A stretch of DNA of 64,000 nucleotides from Squalus acanthias (lineage: Eukaryota), in contig CM059431.1 of assembly GCA_030390025.1 (NCBI GenBank), positions 132,868,001 through 132,932,000 on the forward strand. Direction: 5' to 3'. This document shows, piece by piece, positions 15,224 through 52,553 of the stretch. The number at the start of each line of letters is the position of its first letter. The stretch's first letter is position 1. Made by a program: the position numbers and the translations under genes. The notes beneath the pieces were generated by a model. The model had not been told where the DNA came from. It saw nothing but the letters and a program-made list of their open reading frames with translations, and did not search any database.

Positions 15224-15380
15224 CTCCTGTTATTGTTATTAGTATTAGTATTATTGGAGGAACAAAGCAACTTCCCAGTCATAACAATTGCTGAATCTGT
15301 TTTATTTTTCTCGGATTGAAAACGGCACATAACATTGACGATTGGTAGTTAAAGTCTTTGAAAATCCTTGACAAATATAA

Positions 15381-15480
15381 AATAAATAAAAACAGAAAAT
15401 GCTGGAAATACTCAGCAGGTCAGGCAGCATCTGTAGAGAGAAACAGAGTTAACGTTTCAGGTCGGTGACCTTTCATCAGA
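15381..15480 (-). mobile_element. Hammerhead-bearing short retroposed repeat, 10-bp TSD
   Basis: TSD ACAAATATAA (15371-15380, 15481-15490); minus strand starts T-CTGATGA-A-AGGTC-ACC-GACCT-GAAA-CG-TT-AACTCTG. Confidence 0.85.
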
Positions 15481-16564
15481 ACAAATATAATCTATATTAA
15501 CAGAATGTGATCTTTAGCAACACACAATATCCAGACGTCGGCAATATTTCTTTTTAAACATGAAAGTGTTAGTTAATATCTGTGAATCCTTTGGTGCAGA
15601 GTCTAGCATTTTGATTTATCTTGTTGCTGATTTTCAAAACAGCAATAACACCATTGCCGTAAACTTAATTTTTTATGTTTTTTAAAAACATCCATATGAT
15701 TTCAATATACCTGTTATGTTGTTTGCTGTTGTGTATTTCAAGTGTTGCGTGGTTCCAGCATGTTATTATTTCATAAAATGTTGGCGTTTCTGTAACATAA
15801 AAAACTTTTTTAAAGTATGCGTTTTGACGAATCTTTATGAAGTTTTAAAAAGTGTGGTATTTTTGTTTTTAATTTAATAGTAGACGCTGAACATTCTTGT
15901 AAATTTTAGGGTCTGATTACTACCCTGTTCATTTGTTGAACACAGCGTTTTAATAAAGAAGAAAACACAGAAAATCTAATTCTTGTTGTATTGCTAACGC
16001 GATTTGTATCTGAATTGCCCTTACGTACTTTGTCCAGGTGAAGTGTAAGGTATCCTCCAAAGGGTGTCTTTGTTCGTGCTTTGAATAGAATTACTCGGAA
16101 ATCTAAATCAACCCATTGTTACATAGAGCAGAAACCTGATTTATCACATTTTATAGTGAATAGGAAAGAAGATAAAACCACTTCGTTGTCTTTTAAAAAA
16201 CATTCACGGTTCGTAAAGGGTAGCCCAGCTGAATACAATGCTGCTGTTCAAGAGAACAGATAGTTCATTGATTCGAGTAACATTTAAAAGCTGAATTTGC
16301 CTATCGAGTCGATCTGTTGGTGCAGTTTCACTAGTTAAATCCTTGTAATTCTTCCGTCTGCCCGAGGGGTACTTCTCATTTACACCTTTGTGTTTTTCCT
16401 TTACTTTACGACTCTATTCACGAGTTTATCCGTGATTGTGAAGAGGCGAGAGAGGGACAGAGATTCCCTTTCACTCAAAGCACCCTTTTATTACTTCTGT
16501 ACAGTAAGGAAGTTAGAAACCTTTAGCACCACACTTCTAAGGAATGTTCTTTAATATACATGTA

Positions 16565-16680
16565 AAGAAACTGCAAATGTTGGGAAACTAAAATATTAAA
16601 AAGAACACTGGGAATGTTTTGCTGGGAATACACAACAGGTTCGTCGATATCCGAAACGAGAAAGGACAGGTTAACGCGCT
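16565..16680 (-). repeat. Old, degraded relative of the hammerhead-bearing repeat (core lost)
   Basis: CTGCAAATGTTGGGAA...GCTGGGAATACACAACAGGT...CAGGTTAACG resembles the family body. Confidence 0.4.
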
Positions 16681-19600
16681 TACTTTTGAGAATACGTAAA
16701 ATACATCAAATCAATATTTTTTTATTAGTTCATTGAGTGTATAATTCTAAAACGCGAGTATATCACTATATTTGTGACGCACCGTTACTAGTAGAGGAAT
16801 AGGTACAATCCCGGATGCATCTAACATCACTGTTGTCTAAGTGATACACTGTTTTATCAGCAATGGATGGTGTGCTGGTCAGCTTGTGTATGCGGGAGGA
16901 TCATACCTCAAAGCAGCTATTACTAAGGCCAAATATGATAATGAAAAAAAGATTAAATAATCATTCATAGTACCACATTTTAATTTCAAACAAAAAGCTA
17001 CGTGACTTGAAGAGAACAATTAATTTCAGTTGAAAAAATTTCAAATGAATGTTTCATAAAGCTCTGCGCTAGTAATGAAAATCTATTTCTCATCCTTTTG
17101 TATTGAATATAATGTAGGTCTCCTTTTTATTAAGGAGGTAAGTAATCATGGAACCCTTGTGATTGGAAGATACATTTCAATTAATTCTGCCACAATCGTC
17201 TAATCTTTTCTTCATCAAAAGCTATTATGGTGTTAAAATTAACAATTATGCAACCAATGTCTGTCTGAATCCACAAGGGGACGTCGAAAAAGCTTCAGAT
17301 AACACGACACGTATAAATCATTCATGAGAACAATTCATGTAAGAAAAGTTATCTGTGTTTTGAATGACATTGGAAGAACTAAATGGAACTCGTTCTGTGA
17401 AGGGACATTTTAACTTCATTGTCTACCTTGGTCTTTTCTCTTTTATTTCAGTGTAATATACATTTTCAAAATTAATTAAGCATTAACAGCAAGATAAATG
17501 CTTCTCTTTTATTCAGAGAAACAGTCGCCTCATTGGTGAAAGCTTATTTCACTTGAACAGCACCATTACAATGGCCGTTGCCAGATAAGGTGAAGGATTC
17601 TTCTTTAAACTAGAAATAAACGTTTTGACAGATGGCTGGATGATTACAAAAAAATAAACCCAAAAGCCTGTAACCTGGATTTTCGTCCACTCTCGTTATA
17701 ACCCCCACAGTTTATCCCTTTGGAGTATTTTCTGTTACATGGAATAGGTGTAGTTAAAAGCACCAAAATACGTACATGACGTTTCGTAGCTTCAAACGTT
17801 GACCCATTTTATCAACATACATTTTCGTTTATGTAAAACGTTTGCCACGTGCAACACCTTTATTTACATATCCCTTTAAATGGTTGAAGATTACAAATTT
17901 AATCAACTTACCTCATAAAAGAGCAGGAGTTGTTTCATATAGATTTTGATTACCATCGAATATATTTTCCAAATATATTTCTATTCCTGTTTCCATATTT
18001 GATATGTTGGTCTGGAAATAGAAAATGTTATCAGCGTTTTATTGTAATAATGTTCTGAAACATCTATATATCTAGCCGAAACAAAAACAGAAAAATGTTG
18101 GAAATACATCTCAGGTCAGGTGAATCAGCATCAGTAAAAACAAAATACTCTAAATCAGAACCCGTTCTCAGTAAGGCTACCCCCCACACCCGACACTTTA
18201 ACGTGTCTTTTCACTTCATTGACCTGATGCATCTGATGTCCTACTTTTGTTTGAGTTTCAGTATTTATAGTTTTTTTCTATCTATATATCCATCCAAACA
18301 AAATAATATAAACTGGATCTATAATTTCTCTACAAGCAACTTCAAAATAAGCCTCTGTAAACGTCCAATAATTATCTCACAAATACTTCTTAACATCCTT
18401 CTGTCACTATCCTCTTTGCTTTCAATTATCAGTTTATTACATAAATCCACAAAACAGCTGAACCTCAAAAAGTGAATAAGAATGAAAGAAGTGCAGCATA
18501 CTAAAATAAACAGATGCTAACTGCTTTCATAACATTTGATCACATATTCCATACACAAATCTAAACTGGTAAAACTAAAATAAAATTACATACATTACAC
18601 TTTTTAAATATGTTACAAGTAATAATGATAAGATGGTAGTGATTTCAAAGTCAGGTCTCATCTTAGCATTCAGATAATGGGTATAAACTCAGCTCTGAAC
18701 CTATGGTTAAAATGCTAGCAGGATCCCTTCATTCAGCCTTGTAATCACTCCCTGCAATCCAGTTTATGTGTATTACTCACTGGATATTGATATATCCTGG
18801 TAAAATAGAATTTTGGAGACCACACACATTATGGTATGATTATCCTGCTTTATAGTGGTTGGATTGGACGTCTGATTTACTTTAAATCTCAGTGATAAAT
18901 GGCAGTGAATCATTTCCAATGTAAATGAAAGCATCTTTGGAGGTTGGTTTTATATCGGTGTGCATTTGGACACATGACAGTGTAACATGATTTTGGATTT
19001 GTGATCAAATAGTTCCATTTTCCAAGCATGGAATCTTTTCCTGCATTACTTCCATATTGTTTGCTGCATCCACCTGTTACCTGTTTCAATTTAATGATTG
19101 CTATTACATTTTCCTGTCGAGTTTATGTGTACTCATAAAAATGCACAAAAATTACAACCATGCTGGCTTCTGTTAAGAATCAGAAATGTAAACAGGGCAG
19201 CTGCACTTAGTTCAACCACATGGATTCAAACAGTGAGCCTTGGTGTGACACGCAATCTCAATATAACCATGCCATTACTTTCTAGCAACATTTCCACTTT
19301 ATGTTACAAAATCTGAAACTGCTTGGCAAATCTCAATCACGATAATAGGTAAAGTCAGCATCAATATGAAAAAAATAGTCGTGGTAATGTAAGATGAAAA
19401 CTTCAGTGACAAAACTCAAGTCTTATACAATCCCTGTGGGGATTTCAAGTTAACTGTAGAATGTTGTCACAGAGAGTGGATTTTGCATCATATTTGTGCT
19501 AGCTAGAGATCATTTACAATATTACCCTTGTTATCCATTAAGGGCAGCATGCCAGATATGTAACTCTAACATGGTTTTAGTGTTTTCCTATTGTGATTAA

Positions 19601-19799
19601 AATCAATTTTTTTTGAACTTTGTAAAAATGAAACATTTGCTTTTTTCATAGATATTTCTGTAAAATATCCCTGTGCTCAGACTGAAACTTAAAGCAGTTA
19701 ATATTTTTGTTGCACATCAGTTAAATATATATATTGCTACTATTAAATTATCAATAGCTCCCTTGATAGGTTTACTAAGTGCCTGAACCATACAATTCA

Positions 19800-20180
19800 G
19801 GAAGCTCCTAGATTTAATCCTCAATCTGTGGTGAGTTAGCTAATCTCCGTTGGGCTGGAGGTAGGCCTCAGTACCTTGGGTTAGATGGTTTCCACTCCTG
19901 ATTGCTGTTGAGGGTCTCCTGCTGGAAGTACACATGTAGATGTCAGATGAGGACAGGATCAGGCTCAGCTGTAATGCCCCCACCGCCTCCCCGCCTGCCC
20001 GCCCCTCCCCCCCCCCCCGCCCCCACCCCCGTACTGCAGTTGTATAAGATACAAACATTCACTGTCAATGTTCACACAGGAAAAAGACCGCTTAGGCAAG
20101 GTGCTGGAGGGTAAGTGACATCTGTGGATCCATATACCCCATTAAGGAGTCAACATTTTCAGCAAAGGAGGAAGAGAGGG
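19800..20180 (+). repeat. Old SINE-like repeat
   Basis: Shares GAGGACAGGAT....CTCAGCTGT.ATGCCCC with 44155-44520; degenerate B-box-like head. Confidence 0.45.
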
Positions 20181-21176
20181 AGAAAATTGATGAGAAAGCA
20201 GTCAGTATTTTTCTTTACAAATTGCCTTACTTAGGTTAGACACTATACTCAGAATTGATTCAGATCCCACCGGTGTAAGCTATAAACTCTTAGCACTATG
20301 ACACACATCTGTATAGTTTTTAATGTTTTCAACAAGGTTATTTAATTACCTGTACTTTCAAATTATGGGATGTTGGCTTACTGTCCCTTATATTCCTGCA
20401 GTAAAAAGCTAAAGGATTTTTGTTACTCTTGTAGGTATCTTTTGTTAGGATTTCATAGGGAGCCAATATCCAATGGGAAACCATTAAACCTTTGTCTGGT
20501 TAAACCGGGCATGTTTGTCCCCATGAATTTAATGAAACTAGTAATATATTTGCACATTGCACCCATCTTTCAAAGTTATGATGTAATCATATGTTGTTTT
20601 CAATCTGTCCCTTGAAATAGAAGTCAATGGAGTCTGTTTCACTTAAGTGAAAATGAGTTATATGGATAATCTCCTATCCACCTTAATTGGATAGTTTCTC
20701 AAGAGAAATAAATCCTCCTCTTGGTTCACTGCTTGTTCGTCTTACATGTATATATGGGTCCTTTCATTACATTTTATAGTTTGTAGCTTTGTAGTCCGTA
20801 GAGTGCCCTGTAAAAGCTGATGTTAATTTTTCATTTTTCTACAACAGTGTAGCCTGGGGATCAGGAACCTTTTCAATGATGAGTGCTGGATTAATAACTT
20901 TTCGTTTCTGAATCAGCGTTCCAGCAAACCAGCATGTCAGCAGCCAAAATTTGAACTAAATTTCATATGAAAAATATGGAACAATGCCAGTGAATACATT
21001 ATTCCCATTTTATCCCCAAAAAATCACTTAACGATGTATTTATTTACATTTTGATGAATTTTCCAGATTCATAAAAGTGAGGAAATATTTTTCTATTTTG
21101 GGCTTTCAGTGTCACCATCAAACACTCTTAAATCAAATATTGCATGCGCACCTACAGCATAAAGATTCTTTAAAAA

Positions 21177-21866
21177 GGGCTCGATATTGCTTAGCACCCC
21201 GTTTGGGGAGTTAACTTTTCAGGGAGTGCAAAAGAGGGAAGTGGAGCACTAAATCAAGCGCTACCACTTCCCTTAGAGCACTAAAGGGAGTGAGGGGGTG
21301 GTATCGGCAGAGCGCTGAGCAATGTTTGGGGCAGCGCTGCCGTCTTTACAGGCTCCTTCCCTCCCTTAAAGGGAAGGGCCAATGCTGTGTTGAATGAGTC
21401 TTCAGGCTGTGTCTGTTGGGCAATGGCACCTGCGCAATGAGCATAGCAGCCCCAAGCCCACTAAGAGAGTGCAGGGTTGAGCAATCACGGGGGCAAAAGA
21501 AAGCAGGAGGCACCAGAATGAGGACATAAATACATTTTGCCCTACCTGACCACCACTGCCTTTAAATAGCGCTCCCCAAGTGGCCAGCCTAGGTGACAAC
21601 GCCGCCTGTAGCTGCTGTTGTTGACGCCCGGCGATGCTGCAGGGGGTGGGAGCGAATATCACTTCCAAGGCGCTGCGCACCGGATGACGTCATGAACTTC
21701 GGGGCGCAAGAGAGCGAGGCGGTAAGTCTTAGCGTCAGCGCAAATCCATCAGGGAAGCTCGCGGGCATCGGTGAATTCACCGTGCCCGGTCGGTAACCCC
21801 TTAGCGCCCCGTTACCGTCCCCCGCAGGCGCTATTGGGAGACACAAACCAGTGGAATTTCTCCCCC
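21177..21866. mobile_element. GC-rich MITE-like element, probably Harbinger-type
   Basis: Abrupt GC-rich block in AT-rich DNA with ends GGGCTCGATATT...AATTTCTCCCC and the GATGACGTCA and CCTTAAAGGG motifs seen in the other Harbingers. No clean TSD. Confidence 0.5.
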
Positions 21867-22009
21867 ATCTTTGCCTTAACATGGAATTGAAATTGTGTTT
21901 TGTGAATGAAAGAAGTACTACTTTTTTTCAAAGACAGCTGTGTTTGTACTGAACCTGCAGTTAGCAGACAAATTGGTGACGTGGATCTAAGTTGTGCATA
22001 CTTTCTCAA

Positions 22010-23165
22010 GATCACAAGATAATTACGGATGAGGAAGGCCATTTAATTCATTCAGCCATCAGAAACAATTTGATGTTACAATGTCCTTCGCCCCCTCCCC
22101 CCCCCACCCCCGCCACCCTTGTACCATCCAATTATTTCTTAAATTGTTCCAAAGTTCGTGCCTTCACTACTCTATCTGGATGTTTATTCCACACATTAAT
22201 CACTTTTTGTGTGAAGAATTTTGTGTTATCAGTCTTTTGTTCACCTTTTACTAGTTTGAATCTGAGTCCCCTAGTTCTACTCTCACATTTTAACTTAAAG
22301 TAATATTTTGGGTTAACCTTTTCTATACCTTTACAATTTTATATATCTCTATAAGATCACCTCTTAGATGTCTTATTTGTCAGCTGAAAAGCATAACTTT
22401 CTTCATGACCCTGAACCCTGTCACCATGGATCAGCCTTGTGGCTCTTTGCGGTATCTCCAGCACTTGAATATCTCTTTTGTGTCTTGGTGGCCAGGCTGG
22501 ATGCAGCATTCAAGGTGCAGTCTGACCAGAACACTATAAAGTTTGATAGCAAAATACTGCGGAGGCTGGAAATCCAAAATAACAACAGAAAATGCTGGAA
22601 AAACTCAGCAGGCCAGGCAGCATCCATGGAGAGAGAAACAGAGTTAACGTTTCAGATCGAAGACCTTTCGTCAGATAAAGTTTGATCACTATCTCATCTG
22701 ACTTAAATTCTACTGTTTTGGCTGTGTAGTTCAACATTCTATTGGCATTATTGATTGTTACACTGCATTGGTTAGACATGTTTAGCTTTGAGTCTGCTAA
22801 GACTCTTACATCTCTTTCAACTTCATTCGTAGCTATTTCAACACCAATCATGGAGAACTCATGTCATCTATTTTTCCTTCCCATGTGTAGCACTTTGCAC
22901 TTGACTGCATTAAATGTTATTTGTCATTTGTTCTGCCCACTTTCATATCTTGTTCAATTCATTCTGTAATTTATGAGCTGCCTCCCCTGATTTCACTGCC
23001 TCTCCTATTTGGTATCATCTGGAAATTTGCCCACTTTGCATGGAGTTTCTGAGTCTCGGTCATTTATTTAAATTAGAAACAGCAGCAGTCCCAGCACTGA
23101 GCCTGGAGGCACCCCACTGAGTACTTCCCCCCACTCTGACATAACTACTCTAATGAGTGCTCACT
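22010..23165 (-). mobile_element. Old, degraded CR1 LINE
   Basis: Remnants ERDVRVLADSKLNMSNQC..ANRMLNY and SGVPPGSVLG on the minus strand; 3' hairpin near 22035. Confidence 0.8.
22548..22674 (-). mobile_element. Hammerhead-bearing short retroposed repeat, 12-bp TSD
   Basis: TSD ATAAAGTTTGAT (22536-22547, 22675-22686); minus strand starts CTGACGA-A-AGGTC-TTC-GATCT-GAAA-CG-TT-AACTCTG. Confidence 0.88.
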
Positions 23166-23835
23166 GGGCCAGAATTTACTGTAATCAGCGAATGAATGAC
23201 GTCCGCCCTTTATTAGACTTTCCCTTGCCCGTTAAATTTCCATGAGCTTTTGCATGGCAAGTTGCTGCAAGTGGGAGATGAAAATGACACAGCGCTCTCT
23301 ACAGGGCATCTGGGACTTGTGTGAACAGGCCAAGCAACTGTGCATCTCCTTAACCAAACAGATTGCAGAATCGTTAATGAACAGCACAGATTCTGAACCA
23401 GGATGTGTAGAATAATGAATTCAATGTCAAATCAGGTACAGAAAACAACATAAAGAGAGGGAAAGTGAGATTGGCTTAAGAGAGAGAGAGCGCAAAAAGA
23501 GACAGAAAGAAAAAGTAAAAAAGAAAAAATGTAATTAAAAAGGAAATCTCCAACAACAATTAAGAGCTGAAGGAATGAGAGTCCACACTTGTAACAGTTA
23601 ATTGTTAGTCCCAGAGAGGTTGTTTGGCAGTAATTAAGACTTATCACGCTGTTAAAAAAGGTACTTAGACTGACATTGACAAGCCCTAACTTTCTGTGGC
23701 GAGTTTAGTCCATATCTACGATGTAAGTACACGAACTTCACGCAGCTCAATACATTTGAATCGAGAGCCAGACGGTGAGATGCCATTTTCGCGCAGTTAA
23801 CGGACAGCAACTTCCGGATTTTTGCGTTTAACTGG
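23166..23835. mobile_element. Harbinger-type MITE (family H), right end truncated by CR1
   Basis: Starts GGGCCAGAATTT; reverse similarity to 1-726 and 42850-43130. Confidence 0.55.
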
Positions 23836-23915
23836 GACTCAACAAAATTAACATAAGCAAAATAACAGCAATGAAGAAAATAATGGCACTAAAGAGTGAC
23901 AAATCCCCAGGACCA

Positions 23916-25672
23916 AATGACACAAAACTTGGAAGTATAGTGAACAGTGAGGAGGATAGTGATAGACTTCACGAGGGCATAGACAGGCTGGTGGAATGGG
24001 CGGACACGTGGCAGATGAAATTTAACGCAGAAAAGTGCAAAGTGATACATTTTGGTAGGAAGAACGAAGAGAGGCAATATAAACTAAAGGGTACAGTTCT
24101 AAAGGGGGTGCATGAACAGAGAGACCTGGGGGTATATGTGCACAAATAGTTGAAGGTGGCAGGGCAGGTTGAGAAAGCGGTTAAAAAAGCATACGGGATC
24201 CTGGGCTTCATAAATAGAGGCATAGAGTACAAAGGCAAGGAAGTTATGATGAACCTTTCTAAAACACTGGTTTGGCCTCAGCTGGAGTACTGTGTCCAAT
24301 TCTGGGCACCGCACTTTAGGAAGGATGTGAAGGCCTTAGAGAGGGTGCAGAAAAGATTTACGAGAATGGTTCCAGGGATGAGGGACTTCAGTTATGTGGA
24401 TAGACTGGAGAAGCTTGCAGAATGGGCATATAATTGGCAAATGAAATTCAACACAGATAAATGTGAGGTATTACATTTTGGTAGGAAGAATAGGGAGGTC
24501 ACTTATTACTTGAAGGATGCAAGTCTGGGTGGGGTAGAGGGGCAAAGGGATCTCGGAGAACAAATACACAAATCACTAAAAGTAGCGACACAGGTTAACA
24601 AGGCCATAAAAAAAGCAAATGAGGCACTATGGTTTATTTCTAGAGGGATAGAATTGAAAAGTAGTGAAGTTATGCTAAATTTGTATTGAACCTTGGTTAG
24701 ACCACACTTGGAGTACTGCGTACAATTCTGGTCGTCATATTATAAAAAGGATATGGAGGCACTGGAGAGGGTGCAGAGAAGATTTACAAGGATGATACCA
24801 GAAATGCGAGGGTGAACATATCAGGAAAGGATGAACAGGCTAGGGTCTCTTTTCGCCTGAAAAGAGAAGGCTGAGGGATGACCTAATAGAGGTCTTTAAA
24901 ATCATGAAAGGTTTTAATAGAGTAGATGCAGAGAGAGTATTTCCACTTGTGGGGAAGAGCAAAACTAGAGGCCATCAATATAAGATAGTCACCAAGAAAT
25001 CCAATAGGGAATTCAGAAGAAACTTCTTTACCCAGAGAGTGGTGAGAATGTGGAACTCACTACCACAGGGAGTAGTTGAGGCAAATAGTATAGATGCATT
25101 TAATGGGAGGCTAGATAAGCATATGAGGGAGAAGGGAATAGAGCGTTATGCTGATAGAGTTAGATGAGGAAAGACGGGAGGAGGCTCGAGTGGAGCATAA
25201 ATGCCGGCATGGACTAGCTTGGGCCGAATGGCCTGTTTCTGTGCCGTATATCCTATGTAATCCTATGTAAAGCTGAGGTTGTTCTCCTTAGAGCAGAGAA
25301 GATTGAGAGAAGATTTGATAGAGGTGTTCAAAGTCATGAGGAGTCTAGACAGAGTAGATAGAAAGAAACTGTTCCCATTGGCGGAAGGGTAGAGAACCAG
25401 AGGACACAGATTTAAGGTGATTGGCAGAAGAACCAAAGGCGACATGAGGAAAAACTTTTTTATGCAGCGAGTGGTTATGATCTGGAATGCACTGCCTGAA
25501 AGGGTGGTGGAGGCAGATTCAATCGTGGCTTTCAAAAGGGAATTGGATAAGGACCTGAAGGAAAAAAATTTGCAGAGTTCTGGGGAAAGGGTGGGGGAGT
25601 GGGACGAGCTGAAGTGATCTAGAATGGGCCGAATGGCCTTCTTCTGTGCTGTAACCATTCTATGATTCTATG
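23916..25672 (+). mobile_element. CR1 LINE Y (23916-24415 + 25270-25672), inserted in CR1 X and interrupted by CR1 Z
   Basis: DTKLG...VDRLEKL resumes at 25270 and ends in an (ATTCTATG)n tail. Confidence 0.9.
24416..25269 (+). mobile_element. CR1 LINE Z, nested in Y
   Basis: Restarts at AEWAYNWQMKFN and ends with a (CCTATGTAAT)2 tail; AAGCT is duplicated at 24411-24415 and 25270-25274. Confidence 0.9.
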
Positions 25673-42849: not shown

Positions 42850-43630
42850 TTGATCTCCCCATGATGTACTACATTAGAACTGTGAAACTGACAGGAACTT
42901 CTGGCATCTGCATATGCGCAGTTAAATGCGGAAATCCAGAAGTTGCTGTCAGTCATTCCCGCTCCTCCACAGGGCCGCTGTTGAACTCCTTGCAGCCGGC
43001 AATCAATGGAAATCACTGAACTGACAAGACCTTCAGCTTTTCCGCTCTAATGTCACTGTAAAAAAAATGAAGAAGCTAAGTCTTGTTCAATGAGGTGTAA
43101 CTGGGTTTTTAACGGTGTACTGAGCAATGTTCCCTTTAATTTTTTGAGGTGAGCAGCCCCTTTAAGGGGCTGCGCAGCCATTCAAAATACCACGCATGCG
43201 TAGTTTATCCCATTTAAAAAGAAAAAAAGAAAGACTTGCATTTATATAGCGCCTTTCACGGCCACCAGATGTCCCAAAGTGCTTTACAGCCAATTAAGTA
43301 CTTTTTTTTAAGTGTAGTGACTGTTGTAATGTAGGAAAATCTGGTTAGCCAGCTTGATGACATCACAGTTGCTGGACGCTAGAGATCCCCGAGACTTGCC
43401 GCCAGAATCAAATTAACATCAGGAGAGGTGAAATCCACACCACGGAGATCGCTAGATCTTTACAGGCAGCTTTCTTCGAGATCAGCAGCGAGCACCATCA
43501 CTTCGCCGCTGACCGCAAAATCCGGGTCAATATGTTTTGGTGGTGTTGGTTGAGTGAGGAATGTTGACCAAGATACTGGGACAGATCCCTGCTCTGCTTC
43601 AAAAAATGTCATGGGATGATGTGTGATCTC
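42850..43630. repeat. Patchwork of family-H MITE pieces (42850-43130, 43345-43528) and a minus-strand Deu-SINE (43220-43340, 43530-43630)
   Basis: Reverse matches to 23700-23835 and to 45900-46488; the MITE piece ends GCAAAATCCGGGTC|AAT. Confidence 0.55.
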
Positions 43631-44154
43631 CTCCCAGTATCATAAATGTCTCTAAAACTGATCATTAGGACATATGTAAGGTAGCCCGAGAGTGATTCTC
43701 CCTCTTTGTCCCCTTTCTTTGGCAAGGGACCAGGTCTTTGTTTTTCTGTCTCTCCATGACTGCATGGCTCAGGTAGCTTTTTTCTCTTTATTCTTTTCAA
43801 CTTATTTTCATTTCTTGTTTTCTTGCCTTTTATTGTCTCCAGTTTTATTCTTCTTTTCCCCAAGATTAAAAAGTAATGAACATTTTATCCAATTTTCCCC
43901 CTTTATTAGCTATTTGACTACATACCTTGACCTCTGGTTGAGAAGGTAGGAGATGGGTGATTGTGGATGTTTCATTGGGCTTCTAAAAGTCGTTGGACGG
44001 GGCCAGTAAGATCTAACTTCTGGGTGAATCTTTGCTAATTTTCCAACCAAATTTATGTCAGCTGAAATTGTGATTTGAACAGGTCTCCACTCCATGGTGC
44101 AGTGAATTAACACCTTGCACTATGGGACCTTTCTTTTTAAAATATTTCACTAGC

Positions 44155-44520
44155 CACCTCGATAACTTAGTGGTAAGTATGTAACATGTTGTAACATTGA
44201 GCCATTCAGCCCAGGAAGGTCATTAGTTTGAGTCCTTAGTCTGTGCTGAGTTTTCAGTGGAAACAGTACAATTATCCTTAGTGTCGTCAGGTTAGATAAA
44301 TCAGACAAAGTACCAACTCTTGCTGGTACATGTGTCGACAATGATTGAGGACAGGATTGTACTCAGCTGTGATGCCCCTCTCCCAACATAGTCTATTAGT
44401 CTACTAACAGTCATTAGTCTAGACTTAAAATGTGAAGAATGGTCACATGGGCAAGTTAATGGAGGGCTGTCAGTATCCATGAAACTACCTTGCCATACTT
44501 TAAACAGAAATAGGGTTACG
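44155..44520 (+). repeat. Old tRNA-head SINE-like repeat
   Basis: Degenerate A box (TAACTTAGTGG) and B box; body shared with 19800-20180 and head with 53803-53990. Confidence 0.45.
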
Positions 44521-44689
44521 GAAGAAAACTGGGAACCAATATTTTATTGACTGACAAGCATAAGCAAACAACATGAAAAAAATTCTTACATTGAATTAAA
44601 TCTGATGCAAATTTGAAAGTGGCTGAAATTGCTTGACTGTTCTGGCGATTTCCACCGCAACTCTGGTGGGGATCTAGCGGAGTGACTGC

Positions 44690-45430
44690 AAACTATCTTG
44701 TATTTATAGCCTCTAGTTTTGGATTCTCCTACAAGTGGACCATGTTCTCTACATCTACCCTGTCCAACCTATTGGTAATTTTAAAGACCTCTACCAGGTC
44801 TCCTCTAAGTCTTACGATAGCAAAATACTGCAGATGCTGGAAATCCGAAATAACAACAGAAAACGCTGGAAAAACTCAGCAGGCCAGGCAGCATCCGTAG
44901 AGAGAGAAAGAGAGTTGACGTTTCCTCTAAGTCTTCTCTTTTCTACCGATAGCTATAATCTCTCAGTTCTGGGACCATCCTTGTAAATCTTTTTTCACTT
45001 TCTCCACTACTTCTATGTCCTTTTTATAGAATGGAGACCAAAACTGTGCACAGTACTCTAAGTGTGGCCTGACCAGGGTCCTGTACAAGTTTAACATAAC
45101 TTCACTATTTTTGAATTCTATACCCCTAGATATAAATCCCAGTGCTTTGGTAGCATTTTTAATTGCTTTGCTGAACTGCAGATGTTGCTTTCAATGATTT
45201 GTTCACCTGTATCCCTAGATCCCTTTGCTCTTCTACCCCATTCAGTTTCTTATTTTCTAAGGTGTAGGTGATGTTGCTGTTTTTCCTACCAAAGTGCATC
45301 ACCTCACATTTATCTATGTTAAAGTTCATTTGCTACTTAACTGCCCAGTCTGCAAGTTTTCTAATGTCTTCTTGTATTATGTTGCATTCTTCTCCATGTT
45401 AGCTATACCCCCCAGTTTGGTACTATCTAT
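44690..45430 (-). mobile_element. Old CR1 LINE fragment
   Basis: DSTKLGGIAN and [15 protein letters not shown] remnants on the minus strand. Confidence 0.8.
44814..44922 (-). mobile_element. Hammerhead-family short retroposed repeat, 13-bp TSD, starts at the GAAA box
   Basis: TSD TCCTCTAAGTCTT (44801-44813, 44923-44935); minus strand begins (GA)AACGTCAACTCTC. Confidence 0.88.
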
Positions 45431-45899
45431 AGGTGTAGGTAGTTCTTGCACCCACCCCTTCAGTACTGACATCACTGAAAGAGGCGGTGGGATAACACCA
45501 TCCACTGGAATTCCCTCCAGTACAGCTCCATTGCCCCCAACTTTATACATGCCGAGTCTACATTCTGGTGGAAATGACGGCCCACAACATTTTGAAAGGC
45601 CAGATCCCTTCGCTCCGTGATCCTTTTCTAAATGGGCCACTTTTCTACAAATATTAAAAATCTTCCTCAAGCATTGCTGCTAATTCCTGCCTCCACCCCA
45701 CCTAGTGCACACCACAGCTGCGCTGTGAATGGTTTCATCACTTACCTGATTCATGCAAATGCTTTGCTCCCAGCAATTCAAGCAGGGTAGAGGGCACATC
45801 GTTAGTGAGCTGAAGTCCTACTCCTCCATGGTTACAGCAGTGGAGCAGGATGCTTGGATCCTTGGGGACCAAAGTTCTGATTTTTATTATTCTGATTCC

Positions 45900-46488
45900 G
45901 TCTTTTAGATGACATTAAACCGAGGCCACGTCTTCCCTCACAGGTGGACGTAAAAGATCCCATGGCATTATTTCGAAGAAGGGCAAGGAGTTCTCCTCAG
46001 TGTCCTGGCCAATATTTATCCTTCAACCAACATAACTATGACAGATTATCTGGTCAATACAACAACAACAACTTGCATTTAACAATAGTAAAACATCCCA
46101 AAGCACTTCCCAGGTGTGTTATCCAACAACATTTGACACCGAGCCACATAAGGAGATATTAGGACAGGTGGCCAAAAGCTTGGTCAAAGAGGTAGGTTTT
46201 AAGGAGCGTCTTAAGAGGGAGAGAGAGGTAGCGAGTTGGAGAGGTTTAGGGAGGGAATCCAGAGTTTAGTGGTGAACAAGACTTGGTGCGAGTTAGGATA
46301 TGGGCTGCAGGGTTTTGGATGAGTTCAATTTGATGTTTGTGGGTCCTAGCCTATGAATTGGCTGCTGTGTTTGCGACATTACCACGATGACTACACTTCA
46401 AAAGTACTTCATTGGCTGTAAAGTGCTTTGGAATGTCCTGAGGTCGTAAAAGACGCTTTATAAATGCAAGTCTTTCTTTCTTTTTTTC
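45900..46488 (+). mobile_element. Deu-domain SINE (SacSINE1-like) with a minus-strand L2 3' end inserted at ~46058-46332
   Basis: TTAAACCGAGG...AAAGATCCCATGGCA...GTGTCCTGGCCAA resembles the Deu domain; L2-like tail TATAAATGCAAGTCTTTCTTT; inner piece is the reverse of 52790-52968. Confidence 0.7.
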
Positions 46489-47250
46489 ATGTTTGAGAGC
46501 TTTCTTCACTTGCCAACTCCCAAAATAAGCAGTAAGGTAATGTTGATGGGGTGTCATATGGCAGTTGTATTCTGAAAGGGCTGTATTCTGCCCAGCAAGC
46601 TTGTGCTACTCCTCTGTAGGTCTTAAGTTTTGATACAGTTCTACTGTACTTGAGGCATATTTAAGAGTACAGATGCATATAAAATGATAAACTCCTATGC
46701 CCATATTTACAAATTTGGAAACTGCCTATGAAGATTCTGCACTGGCACCACTGTCAGGAGGGTGTAGTTACAGCGTGATAACTTTATAGAGGTACCTTCC
46801 ATTAAAAATGTGGATATAGTAATTTACAATGAAAATAAGGGCAAGGCCATGGGAGATGCACAAGTATATATAATGCACAAATGGTGTGAATTACAGAGAA
46901 AAACGTGACATTTTAGGAGACACATATCACAAGCAGAACTGATGTGTTTAATAGAGCTGGACTGCAGATCTCTGAGTTCTATACTTGTTATGGTTATTTT
47001 CATTGGTTTGATAGGCTGTCAATACTATACTGAATGGAAAATATATTTCCTTATTTCTGCAATAGGACAAATTAAATAATACAGTAACTGAAGCAGTAGC
47101 AATATCATTACAAACCTCTGAGTAATGTGGAATGTGAACAGAAACTAAGGAAATTAATAGAGTTTTTTTTTTAAAGAACTTATTATATGGAAACAATTTA
47201 ATCTTTTTTCAAATGCATTTAATTGTTTTAAAATATGCAACAAATAACAA

Positions 47251-47373
47251 AAAGGTCATCGACCGGAAACGTTAACTCTGTTTCTCTCTTCACAGATGCT
47301 GTGACCTGCTGAGTATCTCCAGCATTTTCTGTTTTTATTTCAGATTTCCAGCATCTGCAGTACTTTCTTTTTT
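47251..47373 (+). repeat. Hammerhead-family short repeat, truncated inside the CUGAUGA box
   Basis: AAAGGTCATCGACCGGAAACGTTAACTCTG followed by the family body. Confidence 0.8.
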
Positions 47374-47769
47374 CAATTAGAGTGGGTTGTTCTTGGCATT
47401 TTGCACTGTCCACTTTAAACTTGGGCATGATTGTACCTCCACATTGTACCAATGGCAGCCTGAATCAACTCAACTGAAGGCATTTACACTGCGGAACTGA
47501 GAAAGTGCTAATTATCTCACTACTGAGAGTTGGAGTTCAGATTTCTAATTTTTTTTAAATTCGCTTATGGGATGTGGGTGTCGCTGGCAAGGCCAGCATT
47601 TATTGCCCATCCCTAGTTGCCCTTGAGAAGGTGGTGGTGAGCCATCTTCTTGAGCCGCTGCAGTCCGTGTGGTGAAGATTCTCCCACAGTGCTGTTAGGG
47701 AGGGAGTTCCAGATTTTGACCCAGCGACAATATAGGATCGGCGATATATTTCTAAGTCAGGATGGTGTG

Positions 47770-49015
47770 GATGTAACTGGGAAAATAGATAAGGGAGAAC
47801 CAGTAGATGTGGTGTATTTGGACTTTCAAAAGGCTTTTGATAAGGTCCCGCATAAGAGATTAGCGTGTAAAGTTAAGGCACATGGGATTGGGGGCAAGGT
47901 ATTGACTTGGATAGAGAACTGGTTGGCGGACAGAAAGCAAAGAGTAGGAATTAATGGGTCTTTTTCCGAGTGGCAAGCAGTGACTAGTGAGGTACCGCAG
48001 GGATCGGTCCTTGGACCCCAGCTATTCACAATATACATTAATGATCTAGATAAGGGAACTAAATGTAATATCTCCAAGTTTGCAGATGACACAAAGCTGG
48101 GTGGGAGTGTGTGCTGCGAGGAGGATACCGAGAAACTCCAGGATGATTTGAACAGGTTGGGTGAGTGGGCAGAAGCGTGGCAGATGCAATATAACGTGGA
48201 TAAATGTGAGGTTATCCACTTTGGTGTCAAAAACAGAAAGGCAGACTATTATCTGAATGGCAATAGATTGGGAGAAGGGAAAGTGCAACGAGACCTGGGT
48301 GTCCTTGTGCACCAGTCGCTGAAGGTAAGCATGCAGGTGTAGCAGGCGGTGAAGAAGGCAAATGGTATGTTGGCCTTCATAGCGAAAGGGTTTGAGTATA
48401 GGAACAGGGATGTCCTGCTGCAGTTGTACAGGGCCTTTGTGAGACCACACCTTGAGTACTGTATGCAGTTTTGGTCGCCTTATCTGAGGAAGGATGTTCT
48501 TGCCATGGAAGGAGTTCAGCGAAGATTCACAAGGCTGATACCTGGGATGGCAGGAATGACATATGAGGAGAGATTGGGTCGATTGGGCTTATACTCGCTG
48601 GAGTATAGAAGAATGAGAGGGGATCTCATCGAAACATAAAATTTTGACAGGTCTGGACAAACTAGATGCAGGAAGAATGTTCCCGATGGTCGGAGAGTCC
48701 AGAACCAGGGATCATAATCTAAGGATAAGGGGTAAGCCATTTAGGACAGAAATTAGGAAGAATTTCTTCACCCAGAGAGTGGTGAACCTGTGGAATTCTC
48801 TACCACAGAAGGTAGTTGAGGCCAAGTCATTAAATATATTCAAGAATGAGTTAGATATATTTCTTAAAGCTAAAGGTATCAATTGATATGGGGAGAAGGC
48901 AGGTACAGGGTACTGAGTTTGGATGATCAGCCATGATCTCATCGAATGGTGGAGCAGGCTCGAGGGGCCGAATGGCCTACTCCTGCTCCTATCTTCTATG
49001 TTTCTATGTTTCTAT
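47770..49015 (+). mobile_element. Young CR1 LINE, 5'-truncated
   Basis: RT motifs, (ATGTTTCT)n tail, GTGTG duplicated at 47765-47769 and 49016-49020. Confidence 0.95.
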
Positions 49016-50169
49016 GTGTGTGACTTGGAGGGGAACTTGGAGGTGGTGGTGTTCCCATGTGCCTACTGCCCTTGTCCTTCTAGGTGGAAGAGGTCGCGGG
49101 TTTGGGAGGTGATGCCGAAGAAGACTTGGTGAGTTGCTGCAGTGCATCTTGTAGATGGTACACACTGTAGCCACGGTACGCCGGTGGTGGAGGGAGTGAA
49201 TGTTTAAGGTGGTGGATGGGGTGCCAATCAAATGGGCTGATTTGTCCTGGATGGTGTCGAGCTTCTTGAGTGTTGTTGCAGCTGCGTTCATTCAGGCAAG
49301 TGGAGAGTATTCCATCACATTCCTTACTTGTGCCTTGTAGATGGTGGAAAGGCTTTGGGGAGTCAGGAGGTGAGACACTCGCCACAGAATACCTAGCATC
49401 TGACCGGCTCTTGTTGCCACAGTATTGATGTGGCTGGTCCAGTTAAGTTTTTGTTCAATGGTGACCCCCCAGGATGTTGATGGTGGGGAATTCGGCGATG
49501 GTAATGCCATTGAATGTCAAGGGGAGGTGGTTAGACTCTCGTTTGTTGGAGATAGTCATTGCCCGGCACTTCTGTGGCGCGAATGTTACCTGCCACTTAT
49601 CAGCCCAAGCCAGAACGTCATCCAGGTCTTGTTGCATGCGGACATGCACTGCTTCATTATCTGAGGAGTTGTGAATGGCTCTGAATACTGTGCAGTCATC
49701 AGCGAACATCCCCATTTCTGACCTTATGTTGGAGGGAAGGTCATTGATGAAGCAGCTGAAGATGGTTGGGCCTAGGACACTGCCCTGAGGAACTCCTGCA
49801 GCGATGTCCTGGGGCTGTGATGATTGACCATCAATCACCACAACCATCTTCCTTTGTGCTAGGTATGACACCAGCCAGTGGAGCGTTTTCCCCCTGATTC
49901 CCATTGACTTCAGTTTTACTAGGGCTCCTTGATGCCACACTTGGTCAAATGCTGCCTTGATGTCAAGGGCAGTCACTCTCACCTCACCTCTGGAATTCAG
50001 CTCCTTTGTCCATGTTTGGACCAAGGTTGTAATGAGGTCTGGAGCCGAGTGGTCTTGGCGGAACCCAAACTGGGCATCAGTGAGCAGGTTATTGGTGAGT
50101 AAATGTCGTTTGATAGCACTGTCAATGACACCTTCCATTACTTTGCTGATGATTGAGAGTAGACTGATG

Positions 50170-50351
50170 ATGCTTTGTTCTCTATCTATATATGCTTTGG
50201 CGATTCTGTATCTAATTTACTTCACCTGAGGAAGGAGCAATCGATAGCTCCGAAAGCTTGTGATTTCAAATAAAACTGTTGGACTATAACCTGGTGTTGT
50301 GCGACCTCTCAATTTTGTCCACCCCAGTCCAACACCGGCATCTCCGCATCA
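50170..50351 (+). mobile_element. Penelope-like terminal fragment (~180 bp)
   Basis: Near-identical reverse complement of 60821-61002; interrupts the host LINE RT at NYRP|ISLL. Confidence 0.88.
50222..50263 (+). ncRNA. Minimal type-I hammerhead ribozyme motif
   Basis: TCAC-CTGAGGA-A-GGAGC-AATCGATA-GCTCC-GAAA-GC-TT-GTGA: stem I TCAC/GTGA, stem II GGAGC/GCTCC, palindromic AAGCTT in place of stem III. Confidence 0.8.
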
Positions 50352-51198
50352 GGGGCGGTAATTGGCAGGGTTGGATTTGTCCTGCTTTTTGTGGACAGGA
50401 CATACCTGGGCAGTTTTCCACATTGTCGGATAGATGCCAGTGTTGTCGCTGTACTGGAACAGCTTGGCTAGAGGCGCGGCTAGTTCTAGAGCACAAGCCT
50501 TTAGCACAATAGCTGGGATGTTGTCGGGGCCCATAGCCTTTGCTGTATTCAGTGAGCGCAGCCATTTCTTGATATCACGTGGAGTGAATCGAATTGGCTG
50601 AAGACTGCTTCTGTGATGGTGGCGACCTCAGGAGTAGGCCGATAAGGATCATCCACTCAGCACTTCTGGCTGAAGATGGTTGCAAACGCTTCAGCCTTGT
50701 CTTTTGCACTCACGTGCTGGGCTTCACCATCATTGAGGATGGGGATATTCGTGGAGCCTCCTCCTCCTGTTAGTTGTTTAATGGTCAACCACCATTCACG
50801 ACTGGATGTGACAGGACTGCAGAGCTTTGATCTGATCTGTTAATTGTGGGATCTCTTCGCCCTATCTATAGCATGCTGCTTCTGCTTTTTAGCATGCGTG
50901 TTGCAGCTTCCCCAGGTTGGCACCTCATTTTTAGGTATGCCTGGTGCTGCTCCCGGCATGCTCTTCTACACTCCTTATTGAACCAGGGTTGGTCCCCTGG
51001 CTTGATGGTAATGTTAGAGTGAGGGATATGCCGGGCCATGAGGTTACAGATTGTGGTGGAATACAATTCTGCTGCTGCTGATGGCCCACAGCGCCTCATG
51101 GATGCCCAGTTTTGAGCTGCCAAATCTGTTCTGAATCTATCCCATTTAGCACGGTGGTAGTGCCACACAACACGATGGAGGGTGTCCTCAGTGTGAAG

Positions 51199-51284
51199 AC
51201 GACAACACCCAGCTCTACCTCACCACCACTTCTTTTGACCCCTCCACATTGCTTGTCCGACATCCAATATTGGATGAGCAGAAA
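51199..51284 (+). mobile_element. L2 RT fragment
   Basis: DNTQLYL (DDTQLY) and CLSDIQYWMSRN. Confidence 0.6.
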
Positions 51285-52553
51285 TGATGTAGCTTCTACA
51301 GCTTTTTGGGGCAGCATATTCCATGGACCTACCACCCTCTGAGTGAAGTAGTTCCTTCTCATCTCAGTTTTGAAAGAGCAGCCCCTTATTCTAAGACTAT
51401 GCCCCCCTAGTTCTAGTTTCACCCATCATCGGGAACATCCTCCCCGCATCCACCCGATCCAACCCCTTCACAATCTTATATGTTTCAATAAGATCGCCTC
51501 TCATTCTTCTGAACTCCAATGAGTAGAGTCCCAATCTACCCAACTTCTCCTCATATGTCCATCCCCATATCCCCAGGATTAACCGAGTGAACCTTCTTTG
51601 TACAGACTCGAGAGCAAGTATGTCTTTTCTTAAGAAATAACAACAGAAAACGCTAGAAAAACTCAGCAGGCCAGGCAGCATCCGTGGAGAGAGAAAGAGA
51701 GTTAACGTTTCAGGTCGATGACCTTTCAACCAGAGTCTTTTCTTAAGTATGGACACCAAAACTGTATGCAGTATTCCAGGTGCGGTCTCACCAATACCTT
51801 GTACAACTGAAGCAAAACCTCCCTATTTTTATATTCTATCCCCCTAGCAATGAAAGCCAACATTCCATTGGCCTTCTTAATCACTTGCTGCACCTGCATA
51901 CTAACCTTTTGAGTTTCGTGCACCAGGACCCCCAGATCCCTTTGTACTTCAGTACTTTCCAGTTTCTTGCCATTAAGATAATAACTTGCTCTACTATTTT
52001 TCCTGCCAAAGTGCATAACCTCACACTTTCCAGTATTGTATTCCATCTGCCAAATCTCTGCCCACTTACTTAGCCTGTCTATGTCCCCTTGCAGATTTTT
52101 TATGTCCTCCTCACTCACTACTTTCCCTCTCATCTTAGTATCATCTGCAAACTTTGATATGTTACACTCGGTCCCCTCCTCCAAATCGTTAATATAGATT
52201 GTAAAGAGTTGGGGACCCAGCACTGACCCCTGCGGAACACCACTAGTTACTGATTGCCAGTCTGAGAATGAACCATTTATCCCAACTCTCTGCCTTCTGT
52301 TAGATAGCCAATCCTCTATCCATGCCAGAATATTACCCCCAATCCCGTGATTTTTTATCTTAAGCAATAATCTTTTGTGTGGCACCTTGTCAAATGCCTT
52401 TTGGAAGTCTAAATACACCACATCCACTGGTTCCCCTTTATCCACCCTGTATGTTACTTCCTCAAAGAACTCCAGCAAATTTGTCAAACATGACTTCCCC
52501 TTCATAAAACCATGCTGACTTTGTCCTATTAAATTATGATTATCCAAATGTCC
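51285..52553 (-). mobile_element. CR1 LINE ORF2 fragment
   Basis: ORF 51726..52547 RT motifs, continuing in 51397..51634. Confidence 0.95.
51635..51734 (-). mobile_element. Hammerhead-family short retroposed repeat, 13-bp TSD
   Basis: TSD GTCTTTTCTTAAG (51622-51634, 51735-51747); minus strand starts T-CTGGTTGA (mutated core)-A-AGGTC-ATC-GACCT-GAAA-CG-TT-AACTC. Confidence 0.88.

What the first reader, a model, noticed from the sequence alone, without database searches (positions are those of the whole stretch)
15371..51747. Dispersed ~100-130 bp hammerhead-ribozyme retroposon with 10-13 bp TSDs (retrozyme-like family)
Seen: at least seven copies (1755-1876, 5031-6245, 15381-15480, 22548-22674, 44814-44922, 47251-47373, 51635-51734) share all or part of CTGA(T/C)GA-A-AGGTC-NNN-GACCT-GAAA-CG-TT-AACT. 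Stem II stays paired while its loop varies (ATT/ACC/TTC/ATC; one G.U). Four copies have clean TSDs of 10, 12, 13 and 13 bp. There is no tRNA head, LINE tail or ORF. Known: minimal type-I hammerheads with a palindrome replacing stem III are typical of Penelope-like elements and metazoan retrozymes. Inference: a non-autonomous, ribozyme-bearing element mobilised by a Penelope-type RT/endonuclease. I cannot tell from here whether it is already catalogued.
Basis: partly seen in the sequence, partly recalled or inferred. Interest (0 to 1): 0.85.

Follow-up and report, generated by a model that had tools for sequence, protein, structure and literature searches.

The report
Truncated Penelope retroelement ends with hammerhead
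The scattered 100-130 bp repeats are broken-off end pieces of a very abundant Penelope-like jumping gene that carries a minimal hammerhead ribozyme motif, an arrangement already described in fishes and other animals, so this is an ordinary case and not a new ribozyme-bearing mini-element.

Summary
All seven copies, the CTGAYGA...GAAA motif with a paired stem II and varying loop, and the four TSDs (10, 12, 13, 13 bp) are there.

The repeats are Penelope-related and carry a minimal hammerhead (min-HHR), but they are not a separate non-autonomous family. In the window's own 3.7 Gb genome the same sequence runs upstream into a 3'UTR and an RT + GIY-YIG ORF. A full unit is about 3.5 kb with the motif at both ends.

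A 22-mer of the repeat occurs 75,813 times. In 97 sampled copies, 3' ends fall in two classes about 30 nt apart, the Penelope 'tail'. Head-to-head inverted partners are common, and there are no short tandem arrays. Short and long copies share subfamily markers.

Three Penelope families in the window keep the min-HHR pairing with different letters, which supports the ribozyme motif. Rfam finds nothing.

One extra: 34 of 97 copies have their 5' end within 28 nt of the motif's start, and I cannot explain this.

This scan reached the same verdict on other shark and ray DNA.

The parts
22548..22674 (-). Short PLE end copy. It starts at C of CTGACGA (22674), has the min-HHR core, stem II with a TTC loop and one G.U, and a 3' end with tail. 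The predicted cleavage site GTT|AAC lies between 22646 and 22645. TSD ATCAAACTTTAT at 22675-22686 and 22536-22547.
   Evidence: 96% identical to both ends of the L034 unit
15381..15480 (-). Short PLE end copy. It starts one base before CTGATGA, has an ACC loop and a 3' end of the short class (no tail). Predicted cleavage between 15451 and 15450. TSD TTATATTTGT at 15481-15490 and 15371-15380.
51635..51734 (-). Short PLE end copy. The first core box is damaged (TCTGGTTGA), the loop is ATC, and the 3' end is of the short class. TSD CTTAAGAAAAGAC at 51735-51747 and 51622-51634.
44814..44924 (-). More deeply 5'-truncated copy. It starts inside GAAACGTC, lacks box 1 and stem II, has GTC at the cleavage triplet and a 3' end with tail. 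TSD AAGACTTAGAGGA.
47251..47373 (+). Short copy starting at about +8, so it lacks CTGAYGA. It has stem II and GGAAA, and a 3' end with tail. I saw no clear TSD.
5138..6245 (+). Longer 5'-truncated copy with at least 87 nt of 3'UTR before CTGATGA at 5225. It is split after GAAAC by an 894-bp TIR element (5247-6140) and resumes at 6141.
1755..1876 (-). Old copy of a related family ('family 3'): CTGATGA-A-GGGT-CTAT-ACCT-GAAA, with stem I AAUU/AAUU.
60822..61580 (-). 3' part of a second PLE family. It has the GIY-YIG ORF end (61281-61580), a 3'UTR, and a min-HHR CTGAGGA-A-GGAGC-AATCGATA-GCTCC-GAAAGCTT at 60917-60946. Part of it forms a head-to-head inverted pair (arms 61129-61417 and 61557-61845).
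50170..50351 (+). 5'-truncated end copy of the second PLE family. Its min-HHR (50226-50255) is identical to the one at 60917-60946.

Best explanation
The repeats are dead-on-arrival, 5'-truncated insertions of the terminal module of an autonomous, endonuclease-bearing Penelope-like element (PLE). [quoted passage not shown] A roughly 450-nt 3'UTR follows, then a block that starts with a minimal type-I hammerhead: CUGAYGA, one unpaired A, a 5-bp stem II, GAAA, the palindrome ACGU in place of helix III, and the cleavage triplet GUU or GUC. In full-length insertions the same block also precedes the ORF, giving the pseudo-LTR (pLTR) layout, and the reading frame runs through it.

Shown here: the anatomy, the copy number, the two 3'-end classes, the inverted partners and the TSDs.

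Inferred from published work on the Anolis PLE: the element's protein nicks AT-rich DNA and starts reverse transcription inside the RNA at either of two sites about 30 nt apart, which gives the 'tail'. It often primes on both target strands, which gives head-to-head arms, and synthesis usually stops early.

The hammerhead itself is probably a weak, dimer- or protein-dependent ribozyme. Its cleavage is not needed for insertion.
For: Link to an autonomous element:
- 19 of 30 genome copies continue upstream of CTGAYGA into shared sequence, and 10 share 640-708 nt with L004.
- That shared sequence ends an ORF reading ...FRYIDDC...CNLVYCIRCSRCGLLYIGETKRRLGDRFAEH....
- P0001 (660 aa) matches Pfam RVT_1 at E 4.6e-6 and GIY-YIG at E 3.7e-4.
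- P0001 carries the DKG motif and a CX4CxxC linker, both named as PLE or Neptune/Nematis marks in PMC8557442 (passages).
- It has 1175 homologues at E<=1e-10. The nearest named ones are uncharacterised shark and ray proteins at 66-74% identity.
- L034 holds a unit with the motif at both ends, 3535 bp apart, and a frame open for 570 codons from before the motif into RT.
- All 40 scored matches to the motif-to-ORF junction cover it fully at 96-100% identity. 19 of the 20 fetched have an upstream pLTR, about 30 to over 220 nt long.

Abundance and insertion signature:
- The 22-mer has 75,813 exact hits, against 0 for the reversed control.
- Among 97 sampled copies, 3' ends lie at +105 or before in 43, at +121 or beyond in 49, and between in 5.
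- 23 of the 97 arms abut an inverted partner.
- Among 100 listed sites there are 8 head-to-head pairs under 450 bp, 1 tail-to-tail pair, and no same-strand pair under 1 kb.
- Exact TSDs of 10-14 bp flank 6 of the short sampled copies.
- Both main subfamilies contain short and long copies.
- All of this matches the published PLE signature: truncation, pLTR, inverted 5' copy and 30-40 bp tail (PMC8557442 passages), and internal RT initiation at two sites with both strands extended (PMC11167929 main text).

Ribozyme motif:
- It fits the min-HHR description in PMC4209133.
- Three PLE families in the window keep 31 of 33 pair cells (93.9%, against 70.6% when shuffled, 0 of 500 shuffles as high). 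8 of 11 pairs change on both sides.
Against: - Both Pfam matches fall below the curated cut-offs (26.9 against 29.6 bits; 21.2 against 22.6).
- No source names the homologues as Penelope, and I built no RT tree.
- Rfam hammerhead models give no hit, even at E<=10.
- Within the main family there is no covariation beyond wobble: 97.2% paired against 96.9% when shuffled.
- The hammerhead fold of a monomer (-6.5 kcal/mol) is no better than the MFE (-7.8) or shuffles (-7.5 +/- 2.3).
- The pair 10.1-11.1 is A-U or G.U in the main family, not the G-C typical of min-HHRs.
- The three-family covariation rests on 3 distinct sequences, and I drew the structure from them.
- Only one full unit (L034, with frameshifts) was read end to end.
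- The pile-up of 5' ends at the motif (21 of 33 solo ends within 28 of 181 positions, p = 5e-10) is not predicted by simple random truncation.
Confidence: 0.9

Rival explanations
1. One reading: the ~100-130 bp units are a self-standing non-autonomous family (retrozyme- or SINE-like). They would be transcribed and retrotransposed in trans by a Penelope RT, with the hammerhead processing their RNA.
For: There is a real size class. 21 solo copies of 86-150 bp start within 14 nt of CTGAYGA, and 3 of the 6 main-family window copies do so. Animal retrozymes are reported to derive from PLE pLTRs and to leave solo monomers (bioRxiv 10.64898/2026.07.22.740005, abstract and passages).
Against: The short copies start at scattered positions from -14 to +9, not at one defined end. 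Most lack the 5' strand of stem I and any upstream promoter region. They share subfamily markers with long copies. No same-strand pair under 1 kb occurs among 100 sites. The sequence is simply the end of the autonomous unit.
Confidence: 0.05
2. The hammerhead-like motif in this family is not a working ribozyme. The ~135-nt block would be conserved because it is the RT-binding and initiation region and the start of the ORF, and the resemblance to a hammerhead would be inherited baggage.
For: Between three subfamily groups the motif region varies in 1 of about 36 columns. The following 64 nt vary in only 7, so the motif is not more conserved than its 3' neighbourhood. The fold shows no energy signal, and Rfam gives no hit. 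Pair 10.1-11.1 is A-U. At most 3 of 97 copies begin near the predicted cleavage product (+27, +30, +32). In the Anolis PLE, hammerhead mutants insert normally and no RNA-seq reads end at the cut site (PMC11167929).
Against: The same architecture is kept with different letters in three PLE families of this window. Between-subfamily changes fall at positions a hammerhead tolerates: N7 T/C, loop II, H17 T/C, and A-U to G.U at 10.1-11.1. The Anolis motif does cleave when the protein is present (PMC11167929).
Confidence: 0.25
3. The short class does not come from early RT stops. It would come from RNAs whose 5' end lies at the motif (an internal promoter, or 5'-3' trimming halted by the bound protein), copied to their end from the nearby initiation sites.
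For: 5' ends cluster within 28 nt. In vitro, the Anolis protein needs only RNA from about +20 to +172 of the ORF and copies to the RNA's 5' end (PMC11167929).
Against: Only 1 of 20 fetched full-length junction copies (L098) begins at the motif. Counting L034 as well, 3 of 21 (L034, L108, L109) begin 26-32 nt before it, and 11 of the 20 carry more than 220 nt of upstream pLTR. The ends are spread over about 25 nt. No RNA data could be laid.
Confidence: 0.3

Closest known systems
Minimal hammerheads (min-HHR) in the pLTRs of metazoan Penelope-like elements (Cervera & de la Pena 2014, PMC4209133; text read)
   Same: CUGANGA and GAAA boxes; an unpaired nucleotide between A9 and 10.1; helix I of 4 bp; no helix III but a palindromic 15.2-16.2; location in the PLE terminal repeat; thousands of solo truncated copies, some as nearby pairs on opposite strands.
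   Different: Helix II here is 5 bp (the paper reports 7-8 bp in Schistosoma). Pair 10.1-11.1 is A-U or G.U in the main family, not G-C. The copy number is far higher: over 75,000 22-mer hits against 4,000-9,000 motifs reported for coelacanth and Xenopus.
PAc, a Poseidon-type PLE of Anolis carolinensis (Frangieh et al. 2024, PMC11167929; main text read)
   Same: The hammerhead sits at the pLTR-ORF junction with the ORF frame running through it. There are two 3' end classes about 30 nt apart downstream of the motif, corresponding to the two internal RT start sites (the 'tail'). Target sites are AT-rich. Head-to-head arms fit priming on both strands.
   Different: The ORF here has the CX2-5CxxC linker, which the Penelope/Poseidon clade lacks (PMC8557442). 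No biochemistry exists for this element. The pile-up of 5' ends at the motif is not described in the text I read.
Neptune/Nematis clades of EN+ PLEs (Arkhipova 2006, as summarised in Craig et al. 2021, PMC8557442; passages)
   Same: RT followed by a C-terminal GIY-YIG; the DKG motif; a CX2-5CxxC linker (CTRRRCNTC); cysteines and histidines inside the GIY-YIG core; 5' truncation, pLTR, an inverted 5' copy and a 30-40 bp tail.
   Different: Clade placement was not tested by phylogeny.
Animal non-LTR retrozymes (Cervera & de la Pena 2020, PMC7229834, search listing only; Li, Clavereau & Pollet 2026 preprint, abstract and passages)
   Same: A type-I hammerhead related to the PLE pLTR; solo monomers exist.
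   Different: Retrozymes are non-coding units in tandem arrays that give circular RNA. Here I saw no tandem short units, and the sequence is the end of the coding element itself.

Membership tests
Endonuclease-bearing Penelope-like element (EN+ PLE) | Single ORF with RT followed by a C-terminal GIY-YIG endonuclease | tested here: met
   The 660-aa open frame P0001 has YIDD and then LVYCIRCSRCGLLYIGET. Pfam gives RVT_1 at E 4.6e-6 and GIY-YIG at E 3.7e-4, both just under the curated cut-offs.
Endonuclease-bearing Penelope-like element (EN+ PLE) | DKG motif, and a CX2-5CxxC linker (Neptune/Nematis type) | tested here: met
   PADKGG and CTRRRCNTC are read in P0001. The motif definitions come from PMC8557442 passages.
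Endonuclease-bearing Penelope-like element (EN+ PLE) | Pseudo-LTR from partial tandem insertion | tested here: met
   L034 has the terminal block at both ends, 3535 bp apart. 19 of 20 fetched junction copies have an upstream pLTR, about 30 to over 220 nt long.
Endonuclease-bearing Penelope-like element (EN+ PLE) | Optional 30-40 bp tail; adjacent inverted 5'-truncated copy; strong 5' truncation | tested here: met
   Among 97 copies, 3' ends split 43 (short), 5 (between) and 49 (with tail), and 23 arms have an adjacent inverted partner. There are 8 head-to-head pairs against 1 tail-to-tail pair under 450 bp.
Endonuclease-bearing Penelope-like element (EN+ PLE) | RT groups with PLE/TERT RTs in a phylogeny | not tested
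   No tree was built. The homologues carry no family names.
min-HHR of metazoan PLEs | CUGANGA and GAAA boxes around a stem II, with an extra nucleotide after A9 | tested here: met
   This holds in all three families.
min-HHR of metazoan PLEs | Conserved G10.1-C11.1 pair | tested here: not met
   In the main family it is A-U in 37 of 52 copies and G.U in 15 of 52. Family 2 does have G-C.
min-HHR of metazoan PLEs | Palindromic 15.2-16.2 in place of helix III; short helix I | tested here: met
   ACGU in family 1 and AGCU in family 2. Helix I is 4 bp and fully compensated between families. Family 3 has a U.U at 15.2-16.2.
min-HHR of metazoan PLEs | Self-cleavage after H17 | not testable with these tools
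   This needs transcription assays. At most 3 of 97 copies begin near +30.
Rfam hammerhead families | Score at or above the gathering threshold | tested here: not met
   0 hits in the window. No hammerhead hit at E<=10 in 5000-6300 or in 5 loci. The loci end at +30, so the 3' strand of stem I was cut off.
Non-LTR retrozyme | Short non-coding unit in head-to-tail tandem arrays | tested here: not met
   No same-strand neighbours under 1 kb among 100 listed sites, and none in the window.
Non-LTR retrozyme | Lineage distinct from the autonomous element | tested here: not met
   Short and long copies share subfamily markers. The main-family window copies are 85-96% identical to the unit's ends.
Non-LTR retrozyme | Circular RNA of unit length | not testable with these tools
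   No RNA reads could be laid.

The most novel reading that the evidence does not exclude
The hammerhead region may mark a preferred end point of Penelope cDNA. 34 of 97 sampled copies end or join within 28 nt of its start, which gives a discrete class of roughly 90-150 bp 'stump' insertions. If the folded or protein-bound hammerhead, or an RNA 5' end set there, acts as a strong stop for the element's RT, that would give the long-unexplained PLE hammerhead a role other than self-cleavage.
Probability: 0.25. Interest if true: 0.5.

Novelty: new member of a known kind. Interest (0 to 1): 0.2.

Why it matters
It matters little for new biology. The case shows once more that 'retrozyme-like mini-elements' seen by eye in cartilaginous-fish DNA are truncated ends of a hugely successful Penelope-like element.

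It is useful for annotation. One 22-mer of this family alone occurs over 75,000 times in a 3.7 Gb genome.

The clean bimodal 3' ends and the frequent head-to-head arms are genomic footprints of the two internal RT start sites and the two-strand priming seen in vitro for the Anolis element. The 5'-end pile-up at the hammerhead is a cheap, testable lead on what the motif does.

Tried and rejected
- Rfam: gathering threshold on the window gave 0 hits. At E<=10, window 5000-6300 gave 4 unrelated weak hits and five loci gave 0 hits.
- Within-family covariation: none on 52 copies.
- Thermodynamic signal: none for the monomer fold. The cofold result was an uninformative self-duplex.
- Idea that the short copies start at a transcription start in the motif: not supported by the full-length copies (1 of 20 fetched junction copies starts there).
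- Idea that hammerhead-cleaved RNA is the usual template: rejected, since at most 3 of 97 copies start near +30.
- Names of protein homologues: uninformative, all 'uncharacterized'.
- Sequencing runs: no RNA holder listed, and all 19 runs are kept as contigs.
- Paper search for Penelope-like + truncated + hammerhead + shark: returned the known PLE papers plus hammerhead-shark noise. The listing showed no paper on shark PLE hammerheads.
- Dfam and Repbase: could not be searched.
- Supplements of the cited papers: not opened. They may hold cartilaginous-fish examples.
Full report
**Observation.** A pattern search gives 4 matches against 0 in 100 shuffles. BLASTN of one copy against the window, together with an alignment, recovers all seven listed loci. 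A covariance model built later from genome copies finds the same loci and nothing else below E 0.01. The loop variants (ATT, ACC, TTC, ATC), the single G.U and the four TSDs (10, 12, 13, 13 bp) can be read directly from the sequence. The copy at 5138-6245 is split after GAAAC by an 894-bp insertion.

**What the repeat belongs to.** The window lies in a 3.7 Gb assembly. A search of that genome with the 127-bp copy gave 1508 candidates, of which 40 were scored and 30 returned as loci.
- In 19 of these 30 loci the homology continues upstream of CTGAYGA.
- In 5 an inverted partial copy abuts the 5' end.
- In 6 the copy starts at the motif next to unrelated DNA.

Ten loci share 640-708 nt of upstream sequence with L004. 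That sequence is the end of an ORF with YIDD and a GIY-YIG core. One locus (L031) has a 660-aa open frame, P0001. P0001 gives Pfam RVT_1 at E 4.6e-6 and GIY-YIG at E 3.7e-4, both slightly under the curated cut-offs. It shows the DKG motif and a CX4CxxC linker, which Craig et al. 2021 name as marks of PLEs and of the Neptune/Nematis clades (PMC8557442, passages). It has 1175 homologues at E<=1e-10. The nearest named ones are uncharacterised shark and ray proteins at 66-74% identity.

Locus L034 holds a whole unit. The motif block occurs twice, 3535 bp apart, and a frame stays open for 570 codons from before the upstream block into the RT before frameshifts. This is one copy only. A search with the motif-to-ORF junction gave 3122 candidates, and all 40 scored covered it fully at 96-100% identity. 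Of the 20 whose upstream 220 nt I fetched:
- 11 carry more than 220 nt of upstream pLTR;
- 8 carry between about 30 and 205 nt;
- 1 starts at the motif (read by eye).

**Copy number and insertion signature.** A 22-mer from the block has 75,813 exact hits in the genome, and its reversed control has none. I fetched the DNA around the first sites listed on contig C1 (80 regions, 97 copies). I then mapped each copy's ends against long copies. The 3' ends are bimodal: 43 at or before +105, 49 at or beyond +121, and 5 between, counting C of CTGAYGA as +1. In the window, 15381 and 51635 are of the short class and 22548, 44814, 47251 and 6245 have the extension. This is the 30-40 bp 'tail' of PLEs. 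Frangieh et al. 2024 traced it to two internal RT start sites (PMC11167929, main text).

Twenty-three of the 97 arms abut an inverted partner. Among the 100 listed sites there are 8 head-to-head pairs closer than 450 bp, 1 tail-to-tail pair, and no same-strand pair closer than 1 kb. Head-to-head arms with the 3' ends outward are what priming on both target strands would leave. This is inference; the in vitro basis is. Exact TSDs of 10-14 bp flank 6 short sampled copies. Ten TSDs taken together are about 69% A+T by my own count.

**Are the short copies a family of their own?** Both main subfamily groups contain short and long copies. For the marker set ACG/G/TTC there are 10 short, 3 middle and 18 long. 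For ACA/A/TTC there are 6, 9 and 5 (on the first 70 copies). Short copies mostly lack the 5' strand of stem I and everything upstream. I therefore read them as by-products of each active subfamily, not as a replicating lineage. Animal retrozymes are themselves thought to derive from PLE pLTRs (preprint 10.64898/2026.07.22.740005, abstract and passages).

**Is the motif a hammerhead?** It fits the minimal hammerhead that Cervera and de la Pena described in PLE terminal repeats: both boxes, an unpaired base after A9, a 4-bp helix I, and no helix III but a palindrome (ACGU) at 15.1-16.1 (PMC4209133). The exception is that 10.1-11.1 is A-U or G.U rather than G-C.

Evidence inside the family is weak:
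- there is no covariation;
- there is no folding-energy signal;
- Rfam gives no hit;
- between three subfamily groups the motif is not better conserved than the 64 nt after it, though it is much better conserved than the 3'UTR before it.

The window also holds the 3' part of a second PLE family, with a GIY-YIG ORF end at 61281-61580 and a motif at 60917-60946, plus a truncated twin at 50226-50255. That motif reads CUGAGGA-A-GGAGC-loop-GCUCC-GAAA-GCUU with stem I UCAC/GUGA. Aligned with the main family and with the old copy at 1755-1876, 31 of 33 pair cells are standard pairs (70.6% when shuffled, 0 of 500 as high; 21-40% when slid). Eight of the 11 pairs change on both sides. This rests on three distinct sequences and on a structure I drew from them. 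It still supports a conserved RNA architecture across PLE families.

**An unexplained extra.** The 5' ends are not spread evenly.
- 21 solo copies and 13 arms with partners end between -14 and +13.
- 11 end between +14 and +50.
- 4 end between -100 and -15.
- 7 end between -130 and -101.
- 41 end further up.

Among solo copies ending in -130..+50, 21 of 33 fall in 28 of 181 positions (binomial p = 5e-10). Their ends are scattered over about 25 nt and do not sit at one base. At most 3 copies begin near the predicted cleavage product at +30. Full-length copies do not begin at the motif (1 of the 20 fetched junction copies), so a fixed transcription start there is not supported. The possibilities are an RT stop at the protein-bound or folded hammerhead region, or RNA trimmed to that border. 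I could not separate them.

**Verdict.** This is an ordinary, very abundant Penelope-like element with the published kind of minimal hammerhead, seen mostly as truncated ends. I could not check whether this particular family is in Dfam or Repbase. Notes from this scan report the same conclusion on other shark and ray DNA. I reached my reading before I looked them up.

Noticed in passing
window 5247-6140: An 894-bp element with about 15-bp terminal inverted repeats (GGCCGCGAATTTAAT / ATTAAATTTGCGGCC, one mismatch) is inserted in the PLE copy right after GAAAC. Its two halves (1-471 and 471-894) match thousands of candidates in the genome (9542 in the first look). In other loci the halves lie about 600-700 bp apart, so this looks like an internally deleted DNA-transposon derivative.
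   Followed up: partly
window 61129-61417 and 61557-61845: 289-nt inverted arms, 99% complementary and 139 nt apart, belong to the second PLE family (GIY-YIG ORF end on both strands). They form a head-to-head pair like those of the main family. The right arm stops before reaching its hammerhead.
   Followed up: partly
sampled genome loci L037, L046, L080, L084, L086, L087, L127: A second, smaller cluster of 5' ends lies about 101-130 nt before the hammerhead (7 of 97 copies), in the part of the 3'UTR with a short duplicated tctcttaatg motif.
   Followed up: no
window 22500-22547, 22675-22730 and 51735-51790; locus L026 upstream flank: Two window copies (22548 and 51635) sit inside the same conserved stretch of another repeat's ORF (...YK.LVRP.LEYC.QFW.P...), about 60 nt apart in that ORF. 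The same ORF type flanks L026. This could be chance nesting in a very abundant LINE-like element, or a target preference.
   Followed up: no
locus L034 (one full unit); all main-family copies: The ATG inside CTGATGA, and a second ATG 48 nt further on (just before the 22-mer), are in frame with the RT ORF. Subfamilies with CTGACGA lack the first ATG. The true start codon is therefore open.
   Followed up: no
genome places C17:56071272 and C17:56074490; C7:87644175(-) and C7:87646916(+): Two full-length junctions lie 3218 bp apart on the same strand, which suggests a true tandem. Another two lie head-to-head 2.7 kb apart. Only coordinates were seen, plus 251 nt at each of the two C17 junctions; the body of these copies was not fetched.
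   Followed up: no
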